Shown here piece after piece: positions 3,228-36,805 of a stretch of 64,000 nt of DNA (position 1 is its first letter; each line of letters begins with the position of its first letter). The translations under genes were made by a program, and so were the position numbers. The notes beneath the pieces are model-generated. The model was not told the DNA's origin. It saw only the letters and a program-made list of their open reading frames with translations, and ran no database searches. The stretch is from the NCBI RefSeq assembly GCF_055900595.2, contig NZ_CM148325.1; one strand, 5' to 3'.

Positions 3228-3869
3228 TCAGCGACCAATCACCACAACCTGACCACCATCACCTTCATCTGCTGTGCTGATCTCCTGAGATACCACACGT
3301 GATCCCACGCGCATTTCACCGTACAGAACGGGCAGAACATTGCCCTGGGCAACCATATTATCCAGTGAAGAAGAATAGGTGTTCTGTTTGCCGTTATCCG
3401 TTGTCTGTGTGCGGGGGGTTTTGGGTTTAGGGGCCAGCATCTGTGCAACACCGCCAAGCGTCATACTGGCACCGAGAGAAAACAGCAGATTACTCGCCAT
3501 AATTCCTACCCCCGGCATCCATATAGCAACCGCCATAACAGCCGCCCCCAGCACAGCCTGAAACACACCACCACGTTTGGCTCCCGCCAGACGCGGCACG
3601 ATGTGGATCACGGCACCATTTGCCAGCGGTTCATTAAGACGGGCTGATAATTCGTTTTCGCCTGTATCACGCCCGGCAATACGCACCTGATACCAGCCGT
3701 CGCTCAGTTTCTGACGAAACGCAGGGAGCTGCGTGGCCAGCGCCCGGATGGCTTCGGCTCCCGTTTTCACACGAAGGTCGATGCGGCGGCCAAATCGTTG
3801 CAAATCCCCGTAAAGGCAGATGCGTGCCATGCCCGGTGACGCCAGAGGGAGTGTGTGCGTCGCTGCCAT
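3228..3869 (-). CDS. I: tail assembly protein I
   Basis: 213-aa ORF; position between J and K; C-terminal hydrophobic segment; overlaps K by ~100 bp as in lambda. Confidence 0.8.
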   Translation of the reverse strand: MAATHTLPLASPGMARICLYGDLQRFGRRIDLRVKTGAEAIRALATQLPAFRQKLSDGWYQVRIAGRDTGENELSARLNEPLANGAVIHIVPRLAGAKRGGVFQAVLGAAVMAVAIWMPGVGIMASNLLFSLGASMTLGGVAQMLAPKPKTPRTQTTDNGKQNTYSSSLDNMVAQGNVLPVLYGEMRVGSRVVSQEISTADEGDGGQVVVIGR

Positions 3870-4514: not shown

Positions 4515-5213
4515 TTACTGCGAAAGTTTGTTAATGGAAAGGAAGCCGCCAAAGTTGCCGACGTTATTGCGAAACTTACAGCCGCTCAGGCATTTGCTGC
4601 ATTTATCCTTCGTGATATCGGACGTCGGCTGGTCATATTCATCCGCGACTGCCGGACCGTGATAACCGCACTCATCACCGCGATAGGTCCAGGTGCAGGT
4701 GTTGGCCAGCATGATACGTCCCGGAAAAACAGCGCCATCCGTTTCCGTCGGCGTGGCCAGTACAAAGGTCGCGCTGACCGCTGTCAAATCACTGCACTGC
4801 TCGATGCGCCAGCGGCTGATCACCTCCTGCTCCGGATCGGCGTCACTGTTTCCGTTGACGAAGTTCACCGCATCCAGAAAACGGGCGTAAACCTTACGCC
4901 GGACCACCGTTCCGCCGACCAGACTCTGCATATCTTCCGCCATCCCGGTGACCATACCGTACAGGTTAGAAACCGTCAGCGTGGGGCGCGTACTGGTGCC
5001 TTTGCCATTCAGTTCAAAACCGCTCCCCTGAATGGGATACGGCTGATACTGTCGCACCTGCCAGGTGACCGGCTCACCTTTTTCGTTCTGCTCATTACAG
5101 AAAAAATAACGTTCTCCACCGACCTCTGTCAGGTCGATTTCCCAGAGCACCACGCTGGCCGACTGCTCCGCACGGGTGCATTCATTCAGTGTTTCCTGCC
5201 GGATATCCTGCAT
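4515..5213 (-). CDS. L: minor tail protein L
   Basis: 232-aa ORF, same length as lambda L; C-terminal Cys cluster (CSKCLSGCKF); synteny. Confidence 0.85.
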   Translation of the reverse strand: MQDIRQETLNECTRAEQSASVVLWEIDLTEVGGERYFFCNEQNEKGEPVTWQVRQYQPYPIQGSGFELNGKGTSTRPTLTVSNLYGMVTGMAEDMQSLVGGTVVRRKVYARFLDAVNFVNGNSDADPEQEVISRWRIEQCSDLTAVSATFVLATPTETDGAVFPGRIMLANTCTWTYRGDECGYHGPAVADEYDQPTSDITKDKCSKCLSGCKFRNNVGNFGGFLSINKLSQ

Positions 5214-25608: not shown

Positions 25609-25685
25609 TGGACCGCCACCGGGGACTCGAACCTCGCACACTCAACTTAAAGGGTTGACGCTCTTTCCTGATGAGCTAGTGGCGG
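25609..25685 (-). tRNA. tRNA, identity uncertain (anticodon loop CCUUUAA)
   Basis: Acceptor CCGCCAC/GTGGCGG, D-arm GCTC..GAGC, anticodon stem TCAAC/GTTGA, T-loop TTCGAGT, 3' CCA encoded; position 33 is C rather than U. Confidence 0.65.
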
Positions 25686-25687
25686 TT

Positions 25688-25762
25688 GGTGGCCCTTGCT
25701 GGATTTGAACCAGCGACCTGGCGATTATGAGTCGCTCGCTCTCACCACTGAGCTAAAGGGCC
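25688..25762 (-). tRNA. ileZ: tRNA-Ile2 (CAU anticodon; ileX/ileZ-like)
   Basis: Reverse complement GGCCCTTTAGCTCAGTGGTGAGAGCGAGCGACTCATAATCGCCAGGTCGCTGGTTCAAATCCAGCAAGGGCCACCA is a near-match to E. coli ileX; T-arm GCTGG-TTCAAAT-CCAGC. Confidence 0.85.
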
Positions 25763-28897: not shown

Positions 28898-29053
28898 TTA
28901 CTCCTCAGGTTCGTAAGCTGTGAAGACAGCGACCTCCGTCTGGCCGGTTCGGATTCGTACCTCGCAGAGGTCTTTCCTCGTTACCAGTGCCGTCACAATG
29001 ACGGTAATACAGATGACGATCAGGGCGACTAACATCGCCTTTTGCTGCTTCAT
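28898..29053 (-). CDS. hok: Hok/Gef-family type I toxin (in-frame upstream extension to 29110 is mok-like)
   Basis: MKQQKAMLVALIVICITVIVTALVTRKDLCEVRIRTGQTEVAVFTAYEPEE resembles Hok (single TM, conserved C...EVA.F.AYE); inverted repeat GGCGAGGGATTTCTCCCTCGCC in the 3' region. Confidence 0.85.
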   Translation of the reverse strand: MKQQKAMLVALIVICITVIVTALVTRKDLCEVRIRTGQTEVAVFTAYEPEE

Positions 29054-29264
29054 AGCCTGCTTCTCCTTGCCTTTCGGCACGTAAGAGGCTAACCTAGATT
29101 TGCCGTTCATAGATTGAGCCTCAGATTAATGTTAAGCGTCTTGCCGGACGCGTAATGTTAACTGGGGCTTTTCTCTATCTGCCTTTTGGGGTTCATGCCT
29201 GAGACAGATAGCCTCAAGCACCCGCTGCAATTCTACTTAACTCTCCTTTTCCCGCAAACCGTTT

Positions 29265-34384: not shown

Positions 34385-34461
34385 CACCCCTCCAAAGTTG
34401 AGTTTTCTCAATGGTAATCACTCAAGGAATCTCAAGCCAAGGGTTATTAAGATATCTAAAT
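34385..34461. promoter_or_regulatory. immunity-region divergent promoter/operator (pR/pRM-like)
   Basis: 77-bp intergenic between divergent cro-like and repressor genes; palindrome TTGAGTTTTCTCAA at ~34397-34410. Confidence 0.6.
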
Positions 34462-34869
34462 ATGAACGAGAAAACTTTAGGTCAACGAATTAGAGAAAGA
34501 CGCAAACAGGTTGGTTTAAGTCAAAACGATTTAAGCAAAGCTGCTGGCGTATCTGGCTCATCAATTTCACTATGGGAAAGCGACCATACAGCCCCGCGCG
34601 GGCAAAATTTGCATCGCCTGGCTGAGGTATTGCAATGTTCACCAACTTGGATACTGTTTGGTGACGAGGATAAAACACCAGATCCACCAGTTGCACTCAA
34701 CAGCGCCTTAGACTTATCGGAAGATGAGTTGGAGATGTTGCGATTGTATCGCGCACTTCCAAAATCAGAGCAGCAAGCACAAATCAGCGAACTCCGTGCC
34801 CGCGTTGAGAATTTTAATCGCCTATTCACCGAGCTACTAGAAGCTCGCAAACGTAACAAACATCAATAA
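34462..34869 (+). CDS. CI-like repressor (XRE-family HTH, no peptidase domain)
   Basis: Start MNEKTLGQRIRERRKQVGLSQNDLSKAAGVSGSSISLWE (HTH_XRE signature); divergent from the cro-like gene. Confidence 0.8.
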   Translation: MNEKTLGQRIRERRKQVGLSQNDLSKAAGVSGSSISLWESDHTAPRGQNLHRLAEVLQCSPTWILFGDEDKTPDPPVALNSALDLSEDELEMLRLYRALPKSEQQAQISELRARVENFNRLFTELLEARKRNKHQ

Positions 34870-35120
34870 CCCCCCTTCACAAATTTTAAAGCCTTACATT
34901 TCAATGTATTGGCTTTATTTTGCATTAAATATTGAGTTTTCTAATCAAAACACTTGACCAATTTTCATGAGAAAACTAAATTACCATCCATCAAGACACC
35001 GCACGGTGTTCTCAGCAAACAGTTCCGCTACCCCGGCGTTAAGGGGAAACAGAGGATTTCTCAGTGGGCGAAGTCAAACATCAGAATGGAAGGCATCCCG
35101 GGATCGGCAAAGAAGCAGCA

Positions 35121-35420
35121 ATGGCGCTTTATATTGACATCAGCGCCATTGCCGGACAGGTAAGAATTATCAGAGCGGTAACTAAGCGGTATGTGCCTTT
35201 ACTTCAGAAAGGCTCCGGTGATTACACCGAAGATATTGTCAACGATTTCCTCATCGAATTGCGAGGACTCATCTTCAGTTACAAGGTGACCACAATTTTT
35301 GCAGATGGCTCCCGCGAAACTGTCAGAGCCCTGCGGCTTAAAGGATGTGTCGAAGACTTCGCCACCACATTCTGGGCAAGAAAACTTGATTGTATTCATA
35401 ACCAATTTCCTCTCGGGTAA
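35121..35420 (+). CDS. hypothetical protein downstream of repressor (rex/sieB position)
   Basis: ORF 35064..35420 with probable start MALYIDISAI; overlapped on the opposite strand by the zinc-ribbon ORF; only one may be real. Confidence 0.4.
   Translation: MALYIDISAIAGQVRIIRAVTKRYVPLLQKGSGDYTEDIVNDFLIELRGLIFSYKVTTIFADGSRETVRALRLKGCVEDFATTFWARKLDCIHNQFPLG
35199..35405 (-). CDS. zinc-ribbon small protein (antisense to 35121..35420)
   Basis: 68 aa with CPECGG...CKNCGH four-Cys zinc-ribbon motif. Confidence 0.45.
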   Translation of the reverse strand: MVMNTIKFSCPECGGEVFDTSFKPQGSDSFAGAICKNCGHLVTEDESSQFDEEIVDNIFGVITGAFLK

Positions 35421-36208
35421 CAGACCCCTCAGAGGATACCACCTCGCCTGACGTGGTTAAAAGCAGGCACACAACACGAAAGCGCACGGCGAGGTAGCTG
35501 GTTCATATATAGCCTGTCGTTAAATTTTCGTCGACCGTGCGCTTCCGGTTGTGGCACTCCGCGAAATGGCGCGGCGGTAAGCATGGCGGGGTTCCCTTCC
35601 CCTTGAGGACACCGGGTTGTCAGGTTGACCATGCGCCTGAGTGACAACCCCGCTGCAACGCCCTCTGTTATCAATTTTCTGGTGACGTTTGGCGGTATCA
35701 GTTTTACTCCGTGACTGCTCTGCCGCCCTTTTTAAAGTGAATTTTGTGATGTGGTGAATGCGGCTCAGCGCACGCGGAACAGTTAAAACCAAAAACAGAG
35801 TTATGGGTGGATTCTCTGTATCCGGCGTTAATTGTTAACTGGTTAACGTCACCTGGAGGCACCTGGCACCGCATCAACAAAGTTCACTTCGGTGATGAAA
35901 GGTAAGAGAAAATGTTGAATGTAGCTATTGAAAACCAGTACGGGTGGAATTATAGTGCACCTGCACCTCATAAAACGGGTGCCGGGCGTGGAAACCCGAA
36001 AGTTACTCGAGCGCATAACCGCGCCGAAGCGGTTTTTTTATGCGTAATGCACAGCCACATTCAGATAATGGTGGGGCGTGCAGGGCAGCTGCAAGGCTGG
36101 CCGGGTTCTCGAGTGACCGGTATTTCCACCCCTGTACGTCTCGCCACCCTTATGGTCGTGGAAAGCCTCGGTGGTGAGTTAATTAACTTAACACTTGAGG
36201 ATGCCATC

Positions 36209-36760
36209 ATGGCTACTACCCTTACCCTTTCTCACCCTGACGTAACCATTGAAAATGGTCGCGCTGTCACTACGTCTATTGCGATCGCAGAATTCTTCGG
36301 CAAGCAGCATCACCATGTTGTTCAAAAAATAGAGGCCCTCGAATGTTCTGAACGCTTTTTAACCAGCAACTTTTCGCGGGTTAAATTCGAGCACCGTGGC
36401 AATACCTACAATGCCTACCAAATCACCAAAAACGGCTTCGTTTTCCTGGTGATGGGCTTCACCGGCAAAAAGGCCGCTGCATTCAAGGAAGCCTACATTG
36501 CCGAGTTCGACCGCATGGAGGAAGAACTGCGCCGGAATAACACCACACCCGCTGACAAAATAATCCCGGGTGATGGCCGCACCCTGGTTATCCGCTTCGA
36601 CGAACACGGCTACATCAAATTCACCGAAACCGTTCCTGATGGCGCACTGGTCTGTACTCTGGATACTTTCCGTTTTTATCTGGAAAAGCAGGGATGGACT
36701 CTCATAAACCGGGGCGCAATTAAAAATATGACCGTCGAGCAGTTGCTGAGTATTAAATAG
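36209..36760 (+). CDS. Rha-family phage regulatory protein
   Basis: ORF 35912..36760; probable start MATTLTLSHPDV; motif TTSIAIAEFFGKQHHHVVQKIEAL typical of Rha. Confidence 0.7.
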   Translation: MATTLTLSHPDVTIENGRAVTTSIAIAEFFGKQHHHVVQKIEALECSERFLTSNFSRVKFEHRGNTYNAYQITKNGFVFLVMGFTGKKAAAFKEAYIAEFDRMEEELRRNNTTPADKIIPGDGRTLVIRFDEHGYIKFTETVPDGALVCTLDTFRFYLEKQGWTLINRGAIKNMTVEQLLSIK

Positions 36761-36805
36761 TTTTCTGGAATTTCCTTCATATCACAAATTATTAAGGAGA
36801 TTATT

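What the first reader, a model, noticed from the sequence alone, without database searches (positions are those of the whole stretch)
35430..35905. GC-rich, highly structured ~470-bp noncoding block beside the immunity region
Between the rex-position ORFs and the Rha gene there is no convincing coding frame; the two minus-strand ORFs here look like shadows. The sequence is unusually GC-rich for this prophage and full of stem-loops: ACCACCTCGCCTGACGTGGT, GCGCTTCCGG...CCGCGAAATGGCGCGG, GGTTGTCAGGTTGACCATGCGCCTGAGTGACAACC, and an inverted TTAACTGGTTAAC element. This is where a pL/nutL leader and an N-like gene would be expected, but no N-like ORF is evident. It may encode a structured RNA such as a nut-like leader, an sRNA or antitoxin RNA, or a remnant of a retron-type ncRNA that has lost its reverse transcriptase.
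Basis: seen in the sequence. Interest (0 to 1): 0.55.

Follow-up and report, generated by a model that had tools for sequence, protein, structure and literature searches.

The report
DicF small RNA gene and its processing leader
The "structured non-coding block" is the well-known prophage locus for DicF, a small RNA that blocks cell division, with the hairpins that cut it out of a longer transcript. It is ordinary and already explained, apart from one conserved RNA fold just upstream whose role is still unknown.

Summary
Window 35430-35905 is non-coding and folds far better than shuffled sequence.

It is not a new element. It is the dicF region of a dicBF-type early-left operon in a Qin/Rac-like lambdoid prophage of E. 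coli. Rfam finds DicF at 35677-35728 (76.7 bits against a gathering score of 48). The 53-nt gene (35676-35728) is identical to K-12 dicF, and 4626 of 5426 complete E. coli genomes hold a match to the block.

The rest of the block is the published processing context of DicF:
- a 21-bp RNase III-type hairpin (35467-55);
- a conserved ~110-nt four-helix fold, the body of the known 190-nt pre-DicF;
- an AU-rich RNase E linker;
- DicF with its terminator;
- a kil-type leader (35735-35889) closed by a ~22-bp duplex, resembling STnc100 below threshold.

In this prophage ydfABC and dicB are absent, and an isrK-C4-rha cassette sits between the leader and kil.

The nut, antitoxin and retron guesses are not supported.

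One lead remains. The upstream fold shows covariation and is nearly invariant in sequence. It precedes at least nine different terminator-type cassettes (about 35-120 nt downstream) and also occurs in the phage P1 ban leader. Its function is unknown, and it is not detectably related to HK022 put RNA.

The parts
34954..34982 (+). dicBp-type (pL-like) promoter, followed by a conserved transcribed leader to about 35055. This is the presumed start of the transcript from which DicF is cut.
   Evidence: TTGACC-17-TAAATT is reported by the consensus scan. The -35 box and the leader 34990-35055 align almost base for base with the K-12 dicA-ydfA spacer. That this is the only promoter is taken from K-12 work (PMC10448788), not shown here.
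35438..35457 (+). Small hairpin ACCACC..GTGGT in the spacer ahead of the long hairpin. Its role is unknown. It also lies where a minus-strand promoter for the ECs_2282 ORF would be expected.
   Evidence: Fold -6.5 kcal/mol, z = -2.6. The same junction sequence is seen upstream of the long hairpin in several other loci. The promoter idea is inference only.
35467..35555 (+). Long hairpin with a 21-bp stem (35470-35492 paired with 35531-35553). It is the RNase III substrate that sets the 5' end of the 190-nt pre-DicF, with the cut expected near 35542-35547.
   Evidence: MFE -39.1 kcal/mol, z = -4.4. Across 28 distinct relatives 98.1% of cells are paired against at most 43% when slid, with 4 compensatory pairs. 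U-G pairs mark the + strand. cdtI-type phages keep a long stem with a different sequence. RNase III cleavage and the 190-nt species are published for K-12 (PMC10448788). The cut position here is inferred by counting back from the terminator.
35548..35661 (+). Conserved four-helix, cloverleaf-like fold that forms the body of the 190-nt pre-DicF. Helices: P1 35548-55 with 35652-59; H1 35559-74; P2 35575-78 with 35611-14; variable P3 35588-91 with 35599-602; P4 35615-22 with 35642-49, carrying a near-invariant 19-nt loop. Function unknown.
   Evidence: The covariance model R1 hits the window once, at 35557-35661 (112 bits, E 3e-26). On 49 distinct sequences 95.8% of cells are paired against at most 53% when slid, with 7 pairs showing double changes and 0 of 500 shuffles reaching the observed score. 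P1 keeps 8 of 8 pairs in 23 of 25 flank variants. The cloverleaf is the MFE fold in relatives L003 and L004. No Rfam family matches it.
35660..35675 (+). Single-stranded linker GCCCUCUGUUAUCAAU. RNase E cutting at its 3' end makes the mature DicF 5' end.
   Evidence: The sequence is identical to K-12. RNase E dependence of the 53-nt species is published (PMC10448788). It was not tested here.
35676..35733 (+). DicF small RNA (53 nt, 35676-35728) with its Rho-independent terminator hairpin and U tract (35729-35733).
   Evidence: Rfam RF00039 at 35677-35728 scores 76.7 bits against a gathering score of 48, E 3.6e-15. It is 100% identical to K-12 dicF b1574. The terminator hairpin folds at -15.9 kcal/mol.
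35735..35889 (+). Structured kil-type leader closed by a ~22-bp duplex (35735-56 paired with 35867-89). It encloses four hairpins, including the TTAACTGGTTAAC hairpin. The closing duplex fits the RNase III site that gives the published 72-nt DicF 3' end. The leader is an STnc100-like RNA.
   Evidence: MFE -58.1 kcal/mol, z = -4.4, with 0 of 200 shuffles as good. It shows about 80% identity to the stretch just upstream of kil in Rac-type phages. The Rfam STnc100 match at 35740-35881 scores 32.5 bits, below the gathering score of 47, covering model positions 22-154 of 206. The 72-nt species is cited in PMC9438474. Assigning that cut to this duplex is inference.
35890..35905 (+). Left edge of an inserted isrK-C4-rha cassette (about 35890-36790) that separates the kil leader from the kil ribosome-binding site (36794) and start codon (36806).
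   Evidence: Homology to kil leaders stops at about 35887-35890 and resumes at the kil SD/ATG. isrK lies at 35963-36039 and C4 at 36064-36151, both above Rfam gathering scores.

Best explanation
The block is the dicF segment of a dicBF-type early-left operon in a Qin/Rac-like lambdoid prophage.

**How it works (taken from K-12 work, not tested on this prophage).**
1. When the DicA-like repressor is relieved, transcription from the dicBp-type promoter at 34954 runs rightward through the block.
2. RNase III cuts the long hairpin (35467-35555). This frees a ~190-nt RNA that ends at the DicF terminator.
3. RNase E then cuts the AU-rich linker and releases the 53-nt DicF.
4. DicF, with Hfq, base-pairs with ftsZ, manX, xylR and pykA mRNAs. 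It blocks cell division and alters metabolism.
5. Transcripts that read through the terminator carry the structured leader. RNase III cuts its closing duplex, and the leader precedes the division inhibitor gene. That gene is kil here and dicB in K-12.

**What is inferred here for the upstream fold.** Cutting the long hairpin frees the G/U-only strand GUUGUGGC. This strand can then pair with GCUGCAAC and close the upstream fold into a compact four-helix structure that sits almost flush with the new 5' end. Most likely the fold works as a maturation and stability platform. It would protect the 5' end and present the linker to RNase E, so that interchangeable sRNA cassettes can be launched from a long early transcript. 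I put this last step at roughly 0.4.

**Shown here:** the identity of the locus, the structures and their conservation.
For: **Identity as the dicF locus**
- Rfam DicF scores above the gathering score and the gene is 100% identical to K-12 dicF.
- The whole block aligns with the K-12 ydfC-dicB spacer and with phage Tritos, where DicF is annotated.
- 4626 of 5426 E. coli genomes hold a match.
- The repressor is DicA-like, and the dicBp promoter and leader are conserved.

**Published processing scheme**
- 190-nt species by RNase III, 53-nt by RNase E, no internal promoter, and read-through transcripts into dicB-ydfD (PMC10448788).
- The 72-nt species by RNase III (PMC9438474).

**Structures in the right places**
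- The long hairpin is conserved and covaries.
- The closing duplex of the leader is strongly stable.

**Upstream fold**
- It covaries.
- The P1 helix uses the same strand as the base of the RNase III stem.
- The cloverleaf is the MFE fold of the processed 5' part in relatives.
- It is followed within about 35-120 nt by a terminator-type cassette in nearly all of 119 loci, in at least nine sequence classes.
Against: - No expression or processing data exist for this strain.
- Here the operon lacks ydfABC. A minus-strand ORF (ECs_2282 family) lies between the promoter and dicF, so transcription from dicBp across it is assumed, not shown.
- The upstream fold alone is not thermodynamically unusual in the window sequence (z = -0.2). 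The window's own MFE for the processed 5' part is not the cloverleaf.
- A simple scaffold role does not explain why the loops are almost invariant. That pattern suggests a specific partner.
Confidence: 0.9

Rival explanations
1. The conserved fold upstream of DicF is a protein-independent processive antiterminator that works like HK022 put RNA. It would bind the elongating polymerase and let it read through the DicF terminator and later terminators. That would allow dicB or kil, the exonuclease and other early-left genes to be expressed in phages that have no N protein.
For: - The fold always lies downstream of an early promoter and just upstream of an intrinsic terminator, which is followed by same-strand genes.
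- In phage P1 it sits about 40 nt downstream of the C1-controlled ban promoter and just before a strong terminator-like hairpin. The ban gene lies 2.4 kb further on.
- Read-through transcripts into dicB-ydfD exist in K-12.
- No N-like gene or boxA is present here.
- The near-invariant loops suggest a conserved partner.
Against: - The covariance model of the fold finds nothing at putL or putR of HK022 or at five put homologues. The best E there is 0.9, at unrelated positions.
- The short sequence resemblances seen by eye did not hold up. They conflict with the covarying P4 helix.
- The window has no second copy in the rightward operon, unlike HK022.
- A conserved RNase III hairpin that trims the RNA just upstream is not a feature of put.
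- There are no functional data.
Confidence: 0.12
2. The fold is itself a trans-acting RNA, either as the ~137-nt 5' fragment left after the RNase E cut or as the whole 190-nt species. It would act through its invariant P4 loop, by base pairing or by sequestering a protein.
For: - The 190-nt species accumulates stably in stationary phase.
- Loop sequences are conserved far more strongly than the flanking sequence, even when hits are selected with an independent pattern. 46 of 54 are exact and the rest differ by one base.
- The fold occurs once without any sRNA cassette after it, in L096.
Against: No target or partner is known. No complementarity search against host genes could be run with these tools. 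The strong conservation could equally reflect recent spread among closely related phages.
Confidence: 0.15
3. The block is protein-coding after all. Candidates are the minus-strand 81-aa and 90-aa ORFs, or the 32-aa plus-strand ORF at 35807-35905. RefSeq calls the latter a truncated DicB.
For: - The 32-aa ORF matches phrog_24763 (E 5.5e-13).
- PGAP annotates 35807-35881 as a DicB pseudogene.
- In dicB-type relatives this leader frame runs in frame into dicB (read from the alignment).
Against: - The open frames are not conserved among close relatives and length changes are not multiples of three.
- The minus-strand ORFs match no NCBIfam family and have at most one marginal PHROG match (E 0.003).
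- In kil-type leaders the small frame ends in a stop before kil, and its start is missing in the Shigella phage leader.
- The real DicB start lies beyond the point where the window loses homology.
- Compensatory base changes and G-U pairs fit RNA, not codons.
Confidence: 0.03
4. The block is a nutL-type leader, a toxin-antitoxin antisense RNA, or a decayed retron non-coding RNA.
For: It sits at the position of the pL leader and is strongly structured.
Against: - There is no boxA-like site in 34870-35905 and the count in the window is at chance level.
- There is no N-like ORF.
- No Rfam match other than DicF, sub-threshold STnc100, and the isrK/C4 matches just downstream of the block appears at E up to 10.
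- No toxin ORF or reverse transcriptase lies nearby.
- Every structure is accounted for by the DicF processing scheme.
Confidence: 0.02

Closest known systems
dicF in the dicBF operon of cryptic prophage Qin, E. coli K-12 (ydfABC-dicF-dicB-ydfD)
   Same: The 53-nt DicF is identical. The upstream hairpin, fold and linker and most of the downstream leader are nearly identical. The repressor is DicA-like and the dicBp promoter and leader are conserved.
   Different: ydfA, ydfB and ydfC are absent, and a minus-strand ECs_2282-family ORF (or an overlapping plus-strand ORF) takes their place. dicB and ydfD are absent. The end of the leader is of the kil type and is followed by an isrK-C4-rha cassette and then kil.
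Leader upstream of kil in Rac-type prophages, and Rfam STnc100 (RF02076)
   Same: 35735-35889 aligns with the stretch between a DicF-like terminator and kil in Rac-SA53, vB_EcoS-683R6 and Shigella phage 75/02 Stx. Those loci give full-length STnc100 matches of 33-44 bits.
   Different: All these matches, including the window's (32.5 bits), fall below the gathering score of 47. In the window the leader no longer abuts kil because of the inserted cassette.
"dicF-like region" in the ban operon leader of phage P1 (NC_005856 68791-68892)
   Same: It holds the same four-helix fold (92 bits with model R1). Compensatory changes occur in P2 in P1-like contigs and in P3 and P4 in P1 itself. A terminator-type hairpin follows.
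   Different: There is no RNase III hairpin and no P1 closing helix, because the fold starts about 40 nt from the promoter. The RNA after it is not DicF. It belongs to a plasmid prophage of a different phage type.
HK022 put RNAs (putL, putR)
   Same: Both are structured RNAs in an early leader of an N-less lambdoid phage, placed upstream of terminators.
   Different: No similarity was detected with the fold's covariance model R1. The architecture differs: a four-helix junction of about 110 nt against two stems of about 70 nt. The window has a single copy. Function was not tested.
RNase III site in the lambda pL / N leader
   Same: Both are long hairpins in the early-left leader that RNase III cuts, uncoupling the upstream from the downstream RNA. 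This rests on my general knowledge of lambda.
   Different: In lambda the cut regulates N translation. Here it releases an sRNA precursor.

Membership tests
DicF small RNA (Rfam RF00039) | Sequence and structure match at or above the curated gathering score | tested here: met
   76.7 bits against 48, full model 1-52, at 35677-35728 +.
DicF small RNA (Rfam RF00039) | Identity with the experimentally defined K-12 dicF gene (b1574) | tested here: met
   All 53 positions are identical in the alignment with NC_000913.3 1649382-1649434.
DicF small RNA (Rfam RF00039) | 3' Rho-independent terminator hairpin with a U tract | tested here: met
   GGCGGUA..UGCCGCC hairpin at -15.9 kcal/mol, followed by UUUUU at 35729-35733. 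The simple terminator scan did not list it because of the interrupted stem.
DicF small RNA (Rfam RF00039) | [quoted passage not shown] | not testable with these tools
   The RNase III-type hairpin, the linker and the promoter are conserved. Cleavage itself is known only from K-12 (PMC10448788).
DicF small RNA (Rfam RF00039) | Represses ftsZ and other mRNAs by base pairing with Hfq | not tested
   Follows from sequence identity with K-12 DicF. No pairing calculation was run.
Complete dicBF operon (ydfABC-dicF-dicB-ydfD) | ydfA, ydfB and ydfC upstream of dicF | tested here: not met
   ydfC and its flank are missing relative to O103 and Tritos. The space holds an ECs_2282-family minus-strand ORF and an overlapping plus-strand ORF.
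Complete dicBF operon (ydfABC-dicF-dicB-ydfD) | dicB and ydfD downstream of dicF | tested here: not met
   Homology ends before the dicB start codon. The RefSeq "DicB pseudogene" at 35807-35881 lies in the leader. kil follows the inserted cassette instead.
STnc100 (Rfam RF02076) | Match at or above the gathering score over the whole model | tested here: not met
   32.5 bits against 47, model positions 22-154 of 206. It resembles the family but is not filed under it.
HK022 put antiterminator RNA | Sequence and structure similarity to putL or putR | tested here: not met
   Model R1, run with filters off over HK022, HK639, phiEt88, CobraSix, S9-5 and UPF_BP1, gives no hit at any put site. The best E is 0.9, elsewhere.
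HK022 put antiterminator RNA | One copy in each early operon (left and right) | tested here: not met
   The window has a single copy, at 35557-35661. The next best hit has E 0.25 at unrelated places.
HK022 put antiterminator RNA | Promotes read-through of downstream terminators without protein factors | not testable with these tools
   Only the position upstream of terminators is known.
Lambda nut site / N antitermination | boxA and boxB in the leader and an N-like gene downstream | tested here: not met
   There is no boxA-like match in 34870-35905. The window has 19 matches against 22 expected by chance. There is no N-like ORF.

The most novel reading that the evidence does not exclude
The ~110-nt four-helix fold just upstream of DicF (35548-35661) may be an autonomous cis-acting RNA element that has not been characterised.
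- It is shared by many lambdoid prophages and by the phage P1 ban leader.
- It is kept almost invariant while the sRNA cassette behind it is swapped, with at least nine types seen.
- RNase III trimming appears to switch it into its closed form.

Its role could be a universal launch pad for phage sRNAs, or a protein-independent antiterminator unrelated in sequence to put.
Probability: 0.25. Interest if true: 0.6.

Novelty: already known. Interest (0 to 1): 0.2.

Why it matters
As a finding it matters little. DicF is one of the first bacterial small RNAs described, and this copy is identical to the K-12 gene.

It is useful for annotation:
- RefSeq leaves most of the block unannotated.
- RefSeq calls a piece of the RNA leader a DicB pseudogene.
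- The annotated "Rha" ORF runs over two RNA genes.

The one point of wider interest is the conserved fold upstream of DicF. If it proves to be a generic platform or an antiterminator, it would explain two things. One is how N-less lambdoid phages and P1 express genes beyond strong terminators. The other is how phages exchange sRNA "payloads" behind a constant processing module.

Tried and rejected
1. **put homology.** By eye, the fold and HK022 putL/putR share short motifs (CGAACGGCGCG, UAA..CAUG, GGGUU..CAGG.UGA.C). I fetched put from six phages and searched them with the fold's covariance model. Nothing was found. The apparent mini-hairpin also conflicts with the covarying P4 stem, so I rejected the homology.
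2. **A second copy of the fold in the window.** None was found.
3. **tRNA-like gene.** ARAGORN finds nothing in 35300-36300.
4. **boxA/nut.** Not present.
5. **Alternative pairing between the fold and the DicF terminator.** It appears in the MFE, but it is not general, because the P1 and cdtI cassettes have unrelated terminators.
6. **Coding frames.** Rejected on frame instability and the lack of convincing family matches.
7. **Scan of genome contigs with a degenerate 18-mer from the fold.**
   - Almost all of the 120 rows were chance hits in GC-rich genomes.
   - Only E. albertii, Citrobacter and E. coli carried real copies.
   - The scan therefore says little about the taxonomic range.
8. 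**Papers not held.** Faubladier & Bouche 1994 and the P1 genome paper were not in the library. What they say about the dicF-like region could not be read.
9. **Which of the two overlapping ORFs at 35064-35420 is real.** The codon-position test on 5 homologues gave 8/3/4 variable sites. This leans to the minus frame, but the numbers are too small to decide.

Full report
**What is there**

The stretch 35430-35905 lies in the early-left arm of a lambdoid prophage.
- To its left are a Cro/DicC-like gene (minus strand) and a repressor at 34411-34869. The repressor is 57% identical to K-12 DicA.
- Next comes a promoter-like site TTGACC-17-TAAATT at 34954-34982. Its -35 box and transcribed leader align almost base for base with the K-12 dicA-ydfA spacer, that is, with dicBp.
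- To its right are an ORF annotated as Rha, then kil, then a RecE-type exonuclease.
- The window is 100% identical over this stretch to E. coli strain LH50-c.

**Check of the observation**
- The block folds much better than dinucleotide shuffles: z = -3.6, with 0 of 100 shuffles as good. The opposite strand gives a similar value.
- GC is only mildly raised, 0.52-0.56 against 0.41-0.47 next door.
- No frame is conserved. Across 22 distinct full-length relatives (closest matches about 92-96% identical) the stretch is 463 to 467 bases long and the open frames break up differently.
- The three minus-strand ORFs match no NCBIfam family and have at most one marginal PHROG match (E 0.003).
- So the description as non-coding and structured is right.
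- One of the four named stem-loops was mis-parsed. GCGCTTCCGG pairs with sequence upstream, not with CCGCGAAATGGCGCGG, which is a hairpin by itself.

**Identification**
- Rfam places DicF at 35677-35728 on the plus strand, at 76.7 bits against a gathering score of 48.
- The annotated K-12 gene (b1574, 53 nt) aligns to 35676-35728 without a single difference. The whole block aligns with the K-12 ydfC-dicB spacer.
- Phage Tritos carries the same stretch with DicF annotated.
- A match to the block is present in 4626 of 5426 complete E. coli genomes, with a median of two places per genome.
- The element is therefore already known.

**How the rest of the block fits the published processing of DicF**

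In K-12, DicF is cut from the polycistronic dicBp transcript. RNase III makes the 5' end of a 190-nt species. RNase E makes the 5' end of the 53-nt RNA. Both end at the terminator. No internal promoter was found, and read-through transcripts into dicB-ydfD exist (PMC10448788). RNase III also makes a 72-nt form from read-through RNA (PMC9438474). The window has structures in exactly these places.

1. **A long hairpin at 35467-35555.**
   - It has a 21-bp stem (z = -4.4).
   - In 28 distinct relatives 98.1% of cells pair against at most 43% when the partner is slid. Four pairs change on both sides, and U-G pairs fit only the plus strand.
   - cdtI-type phages keep a long stem of different sequence at the same place.
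   - Counting 190 nt back from the terminator puts the cut at about 35542-35547, in the 3' strand of this stem. This is an inference.
2. **The AU-rich linker 35660-35675,** ending at the mature DicF 5' end.
3. **DicF with its terminator hairpin and U tract,** to 35733.
4. **A 155-nt leader at 35735-35889.**
   - Its ends form a duplex of about 22 bp enclosing four hairpins (z = -4.4).
   - The duplex begins right after the terminator and fits the RNase III cut that gives the 72-nt form. This too is an inference.
   - In Rac-type phages the same leader runs up to kil. There it matches Rfam STnc100 over the full model at 33-44 bits, below the gathering score of 47. The window match is 32.5 bits and partial.

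**What is particular to this prophage**
- ydfA, ydfB and ydfC are missing. Between the promoter leader and the hairpin lie two overlapping ORFs on opposite strands.
  - One is of the ECs_2282 zinc-binding family on the minus strand (57 bits against a cutoff of 37).
  - The other is on the plus strand and matches phrog_21318 (E 2e-61).
  - A codon-position count leans to the minus frame but rests on only 15 sites.
- dicB and ydfD are also missing. Homology to kil-type leaders stops at about 35887-35890 and resumes at the kil ribosome-binding site (36794).
- Between these points lies a cassette with its own promoter-like site (35928-35956), isrK (35963-36039), C4 antisense RNA (36064-36151) and an Rha-domain protein.
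- The RefSeq "DicB pseudogene" at 35807-35881 lies in the RNA leader. The true dicB start in relatives lies beyond the breakpoint.

**The conserved fold upstream of DicF**

The 5' part of the 190-nt precursor is not just spacer.
- A pattern from it finds more than 120 viral contigs.
- It also matches the annotated "dicF-like region" in the ban operon leader of phage P1, as well as cdtI and Stx2c phages.
- On 49 distinct sequences aligned to a covariance model, 95.8% of cells pair against at most 53% when slid. Seven pairs show double changes, and 0 of 500 shuffles reach the observed score.
- The helices are H1, P2 (U-A changing to C-G), a variable hairpin P3 (GC, CG, UA and AU at one pair) and P4 (four covarying pairs).
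- An eighth-base-pair closing helix P1 joins GUUGUGGY just upstream to RYYRCAAC just downstream. It keeps 8 of 8 pairs in 23 of 25 flank variants. With it, the cloverleaf-like four-helix fold is the MFE of the processed 5' part in two relatives.
- The 5' strand of P1 is also the base of the RNase III stem, so the two pairings exclude each other. This suggests, by inference, that cutting the hairpin lets the fold close.
- The loops are nearly invariant. That holds even when hits are chosen with an independent pattern from the other end of the fold: 46 of 54 are exact and the rest differ by one base.
- In nearly all of 119 loci the fold is followed within about 35-120 nt by a terminator-type hairpin, but the sequence between differs. 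At least nine cassette types occur, of which canonical DicF is the commonest.
- The fold is not in Rfam 15, and I found no paper in the held library that assigns it a function.

**What the fold might do**
- The most economical reading is a maturation and stability platform for sRNAs carried in a long early transcript.
- A put-like antiterminator is attractive because of its position before terminators, especially in P1. However, the model finds no put site in six put-bearing phages, the window has only one copy, and the architecture differs.
- I therefore do not file it under put and give that reading a low probability.
- A trans-acting role for the fold itself cannot be excluded.

**Other readings checked**
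- There is no boxA-like site in the leader, no tRNA-like gene, and no other Rfam match within the block even at E up to 10 (isrK and C4 match just downstream).
- The nut, antitoxin and retron ideas are not supported.

**Verdict**

The finding is real as an observation, and ordinary as biology. It is the dicF small-RNA locus with its processing hairpins, in a mosaic prophage that has lost ydfABC and dicB. The only open point is the function of the conserved fold upstream of DicF.

Noticed in passing
window 35890-36790 (isrK 35963-36039, C4 36064-36151, ORF 35912-36760): An immI-type cassette sits between the kil leader and kil. It has a promoter-like site at 35928-35956, a weak C4-target (a1/b1) match at 35950-36002, isrK, C4 antisense RNA and an Rha-domain protein. 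The annotated 282-aa "Rha" ORF runs straight across both RNA genes. The Rha domain starts at residue 109, and an in-frame ATG with a GAGGA box lies at 36209, so the real protein may start there.
   Followed up: partly
window 35064-35420 (+) and 35199-35399 (-): Two overlapping ORFs on opposite strands both match families: phrog_21318 (E 2e-61) on the plus strand and NCBIfam ECs_2282 zinc-binding on the minus strand. One must be a shadow. Variable sites by codon position (8/3/4) lean to the minus frame, but there are only 15 sites. If the minus ORF is real, the dicF transcript runs antisense to it.
   Followed up: partly
window 35807-35881: RefSeq (PGAP) calls this a DicB pseudogene, but it lies inside the structured RNA leader. 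In dicB-type relatives the leader frame happens to run in frame into dicB. This probably seeded long DicB models and phrog_24763.
   Followed up: partly
window 29048-29223 (-): A full-length sok antitoxin RNA match (112 bits against a gathering score of 59), which implies a hok/sok-type toxin-antitoxin locus in the prophage.
   Followed up: no
window 25612-25762 (-): Two adjacent tRNA genes (72.5 and 44.4 bits) lie inside the window.
   Followed up: no
L013 about 3560-3690 (-) and L101 about 4560-4700 (-), just downstream of the fold: In two cassette types the long terminator-like hairpin (GGCGGTACC...GGTACCGCC) encloses a Shine-Dalgarno-like AGGAG and an ATG. This suggests a tiny ORF or a translation-coupled terminator in place of a plain sRNA.
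   Followed up: no
L096 995-1180: This is the one locus where the conserved fold is not followed by any terminator-type cassette. Instead an ORF with a GGAGG box follows directly. It shows that the fold can occur without an sRNA.
   Followed up: no
L008 (phage P1 NC_005856) 2499-2660: The P1 ban operon leader carries the same fold about 40 nt after the C1-controlled promoter, then a strong terminator-like hairpin, well before the tRNA genes and ban. How ban is expressed past it is unclear.
   Followed up: partly
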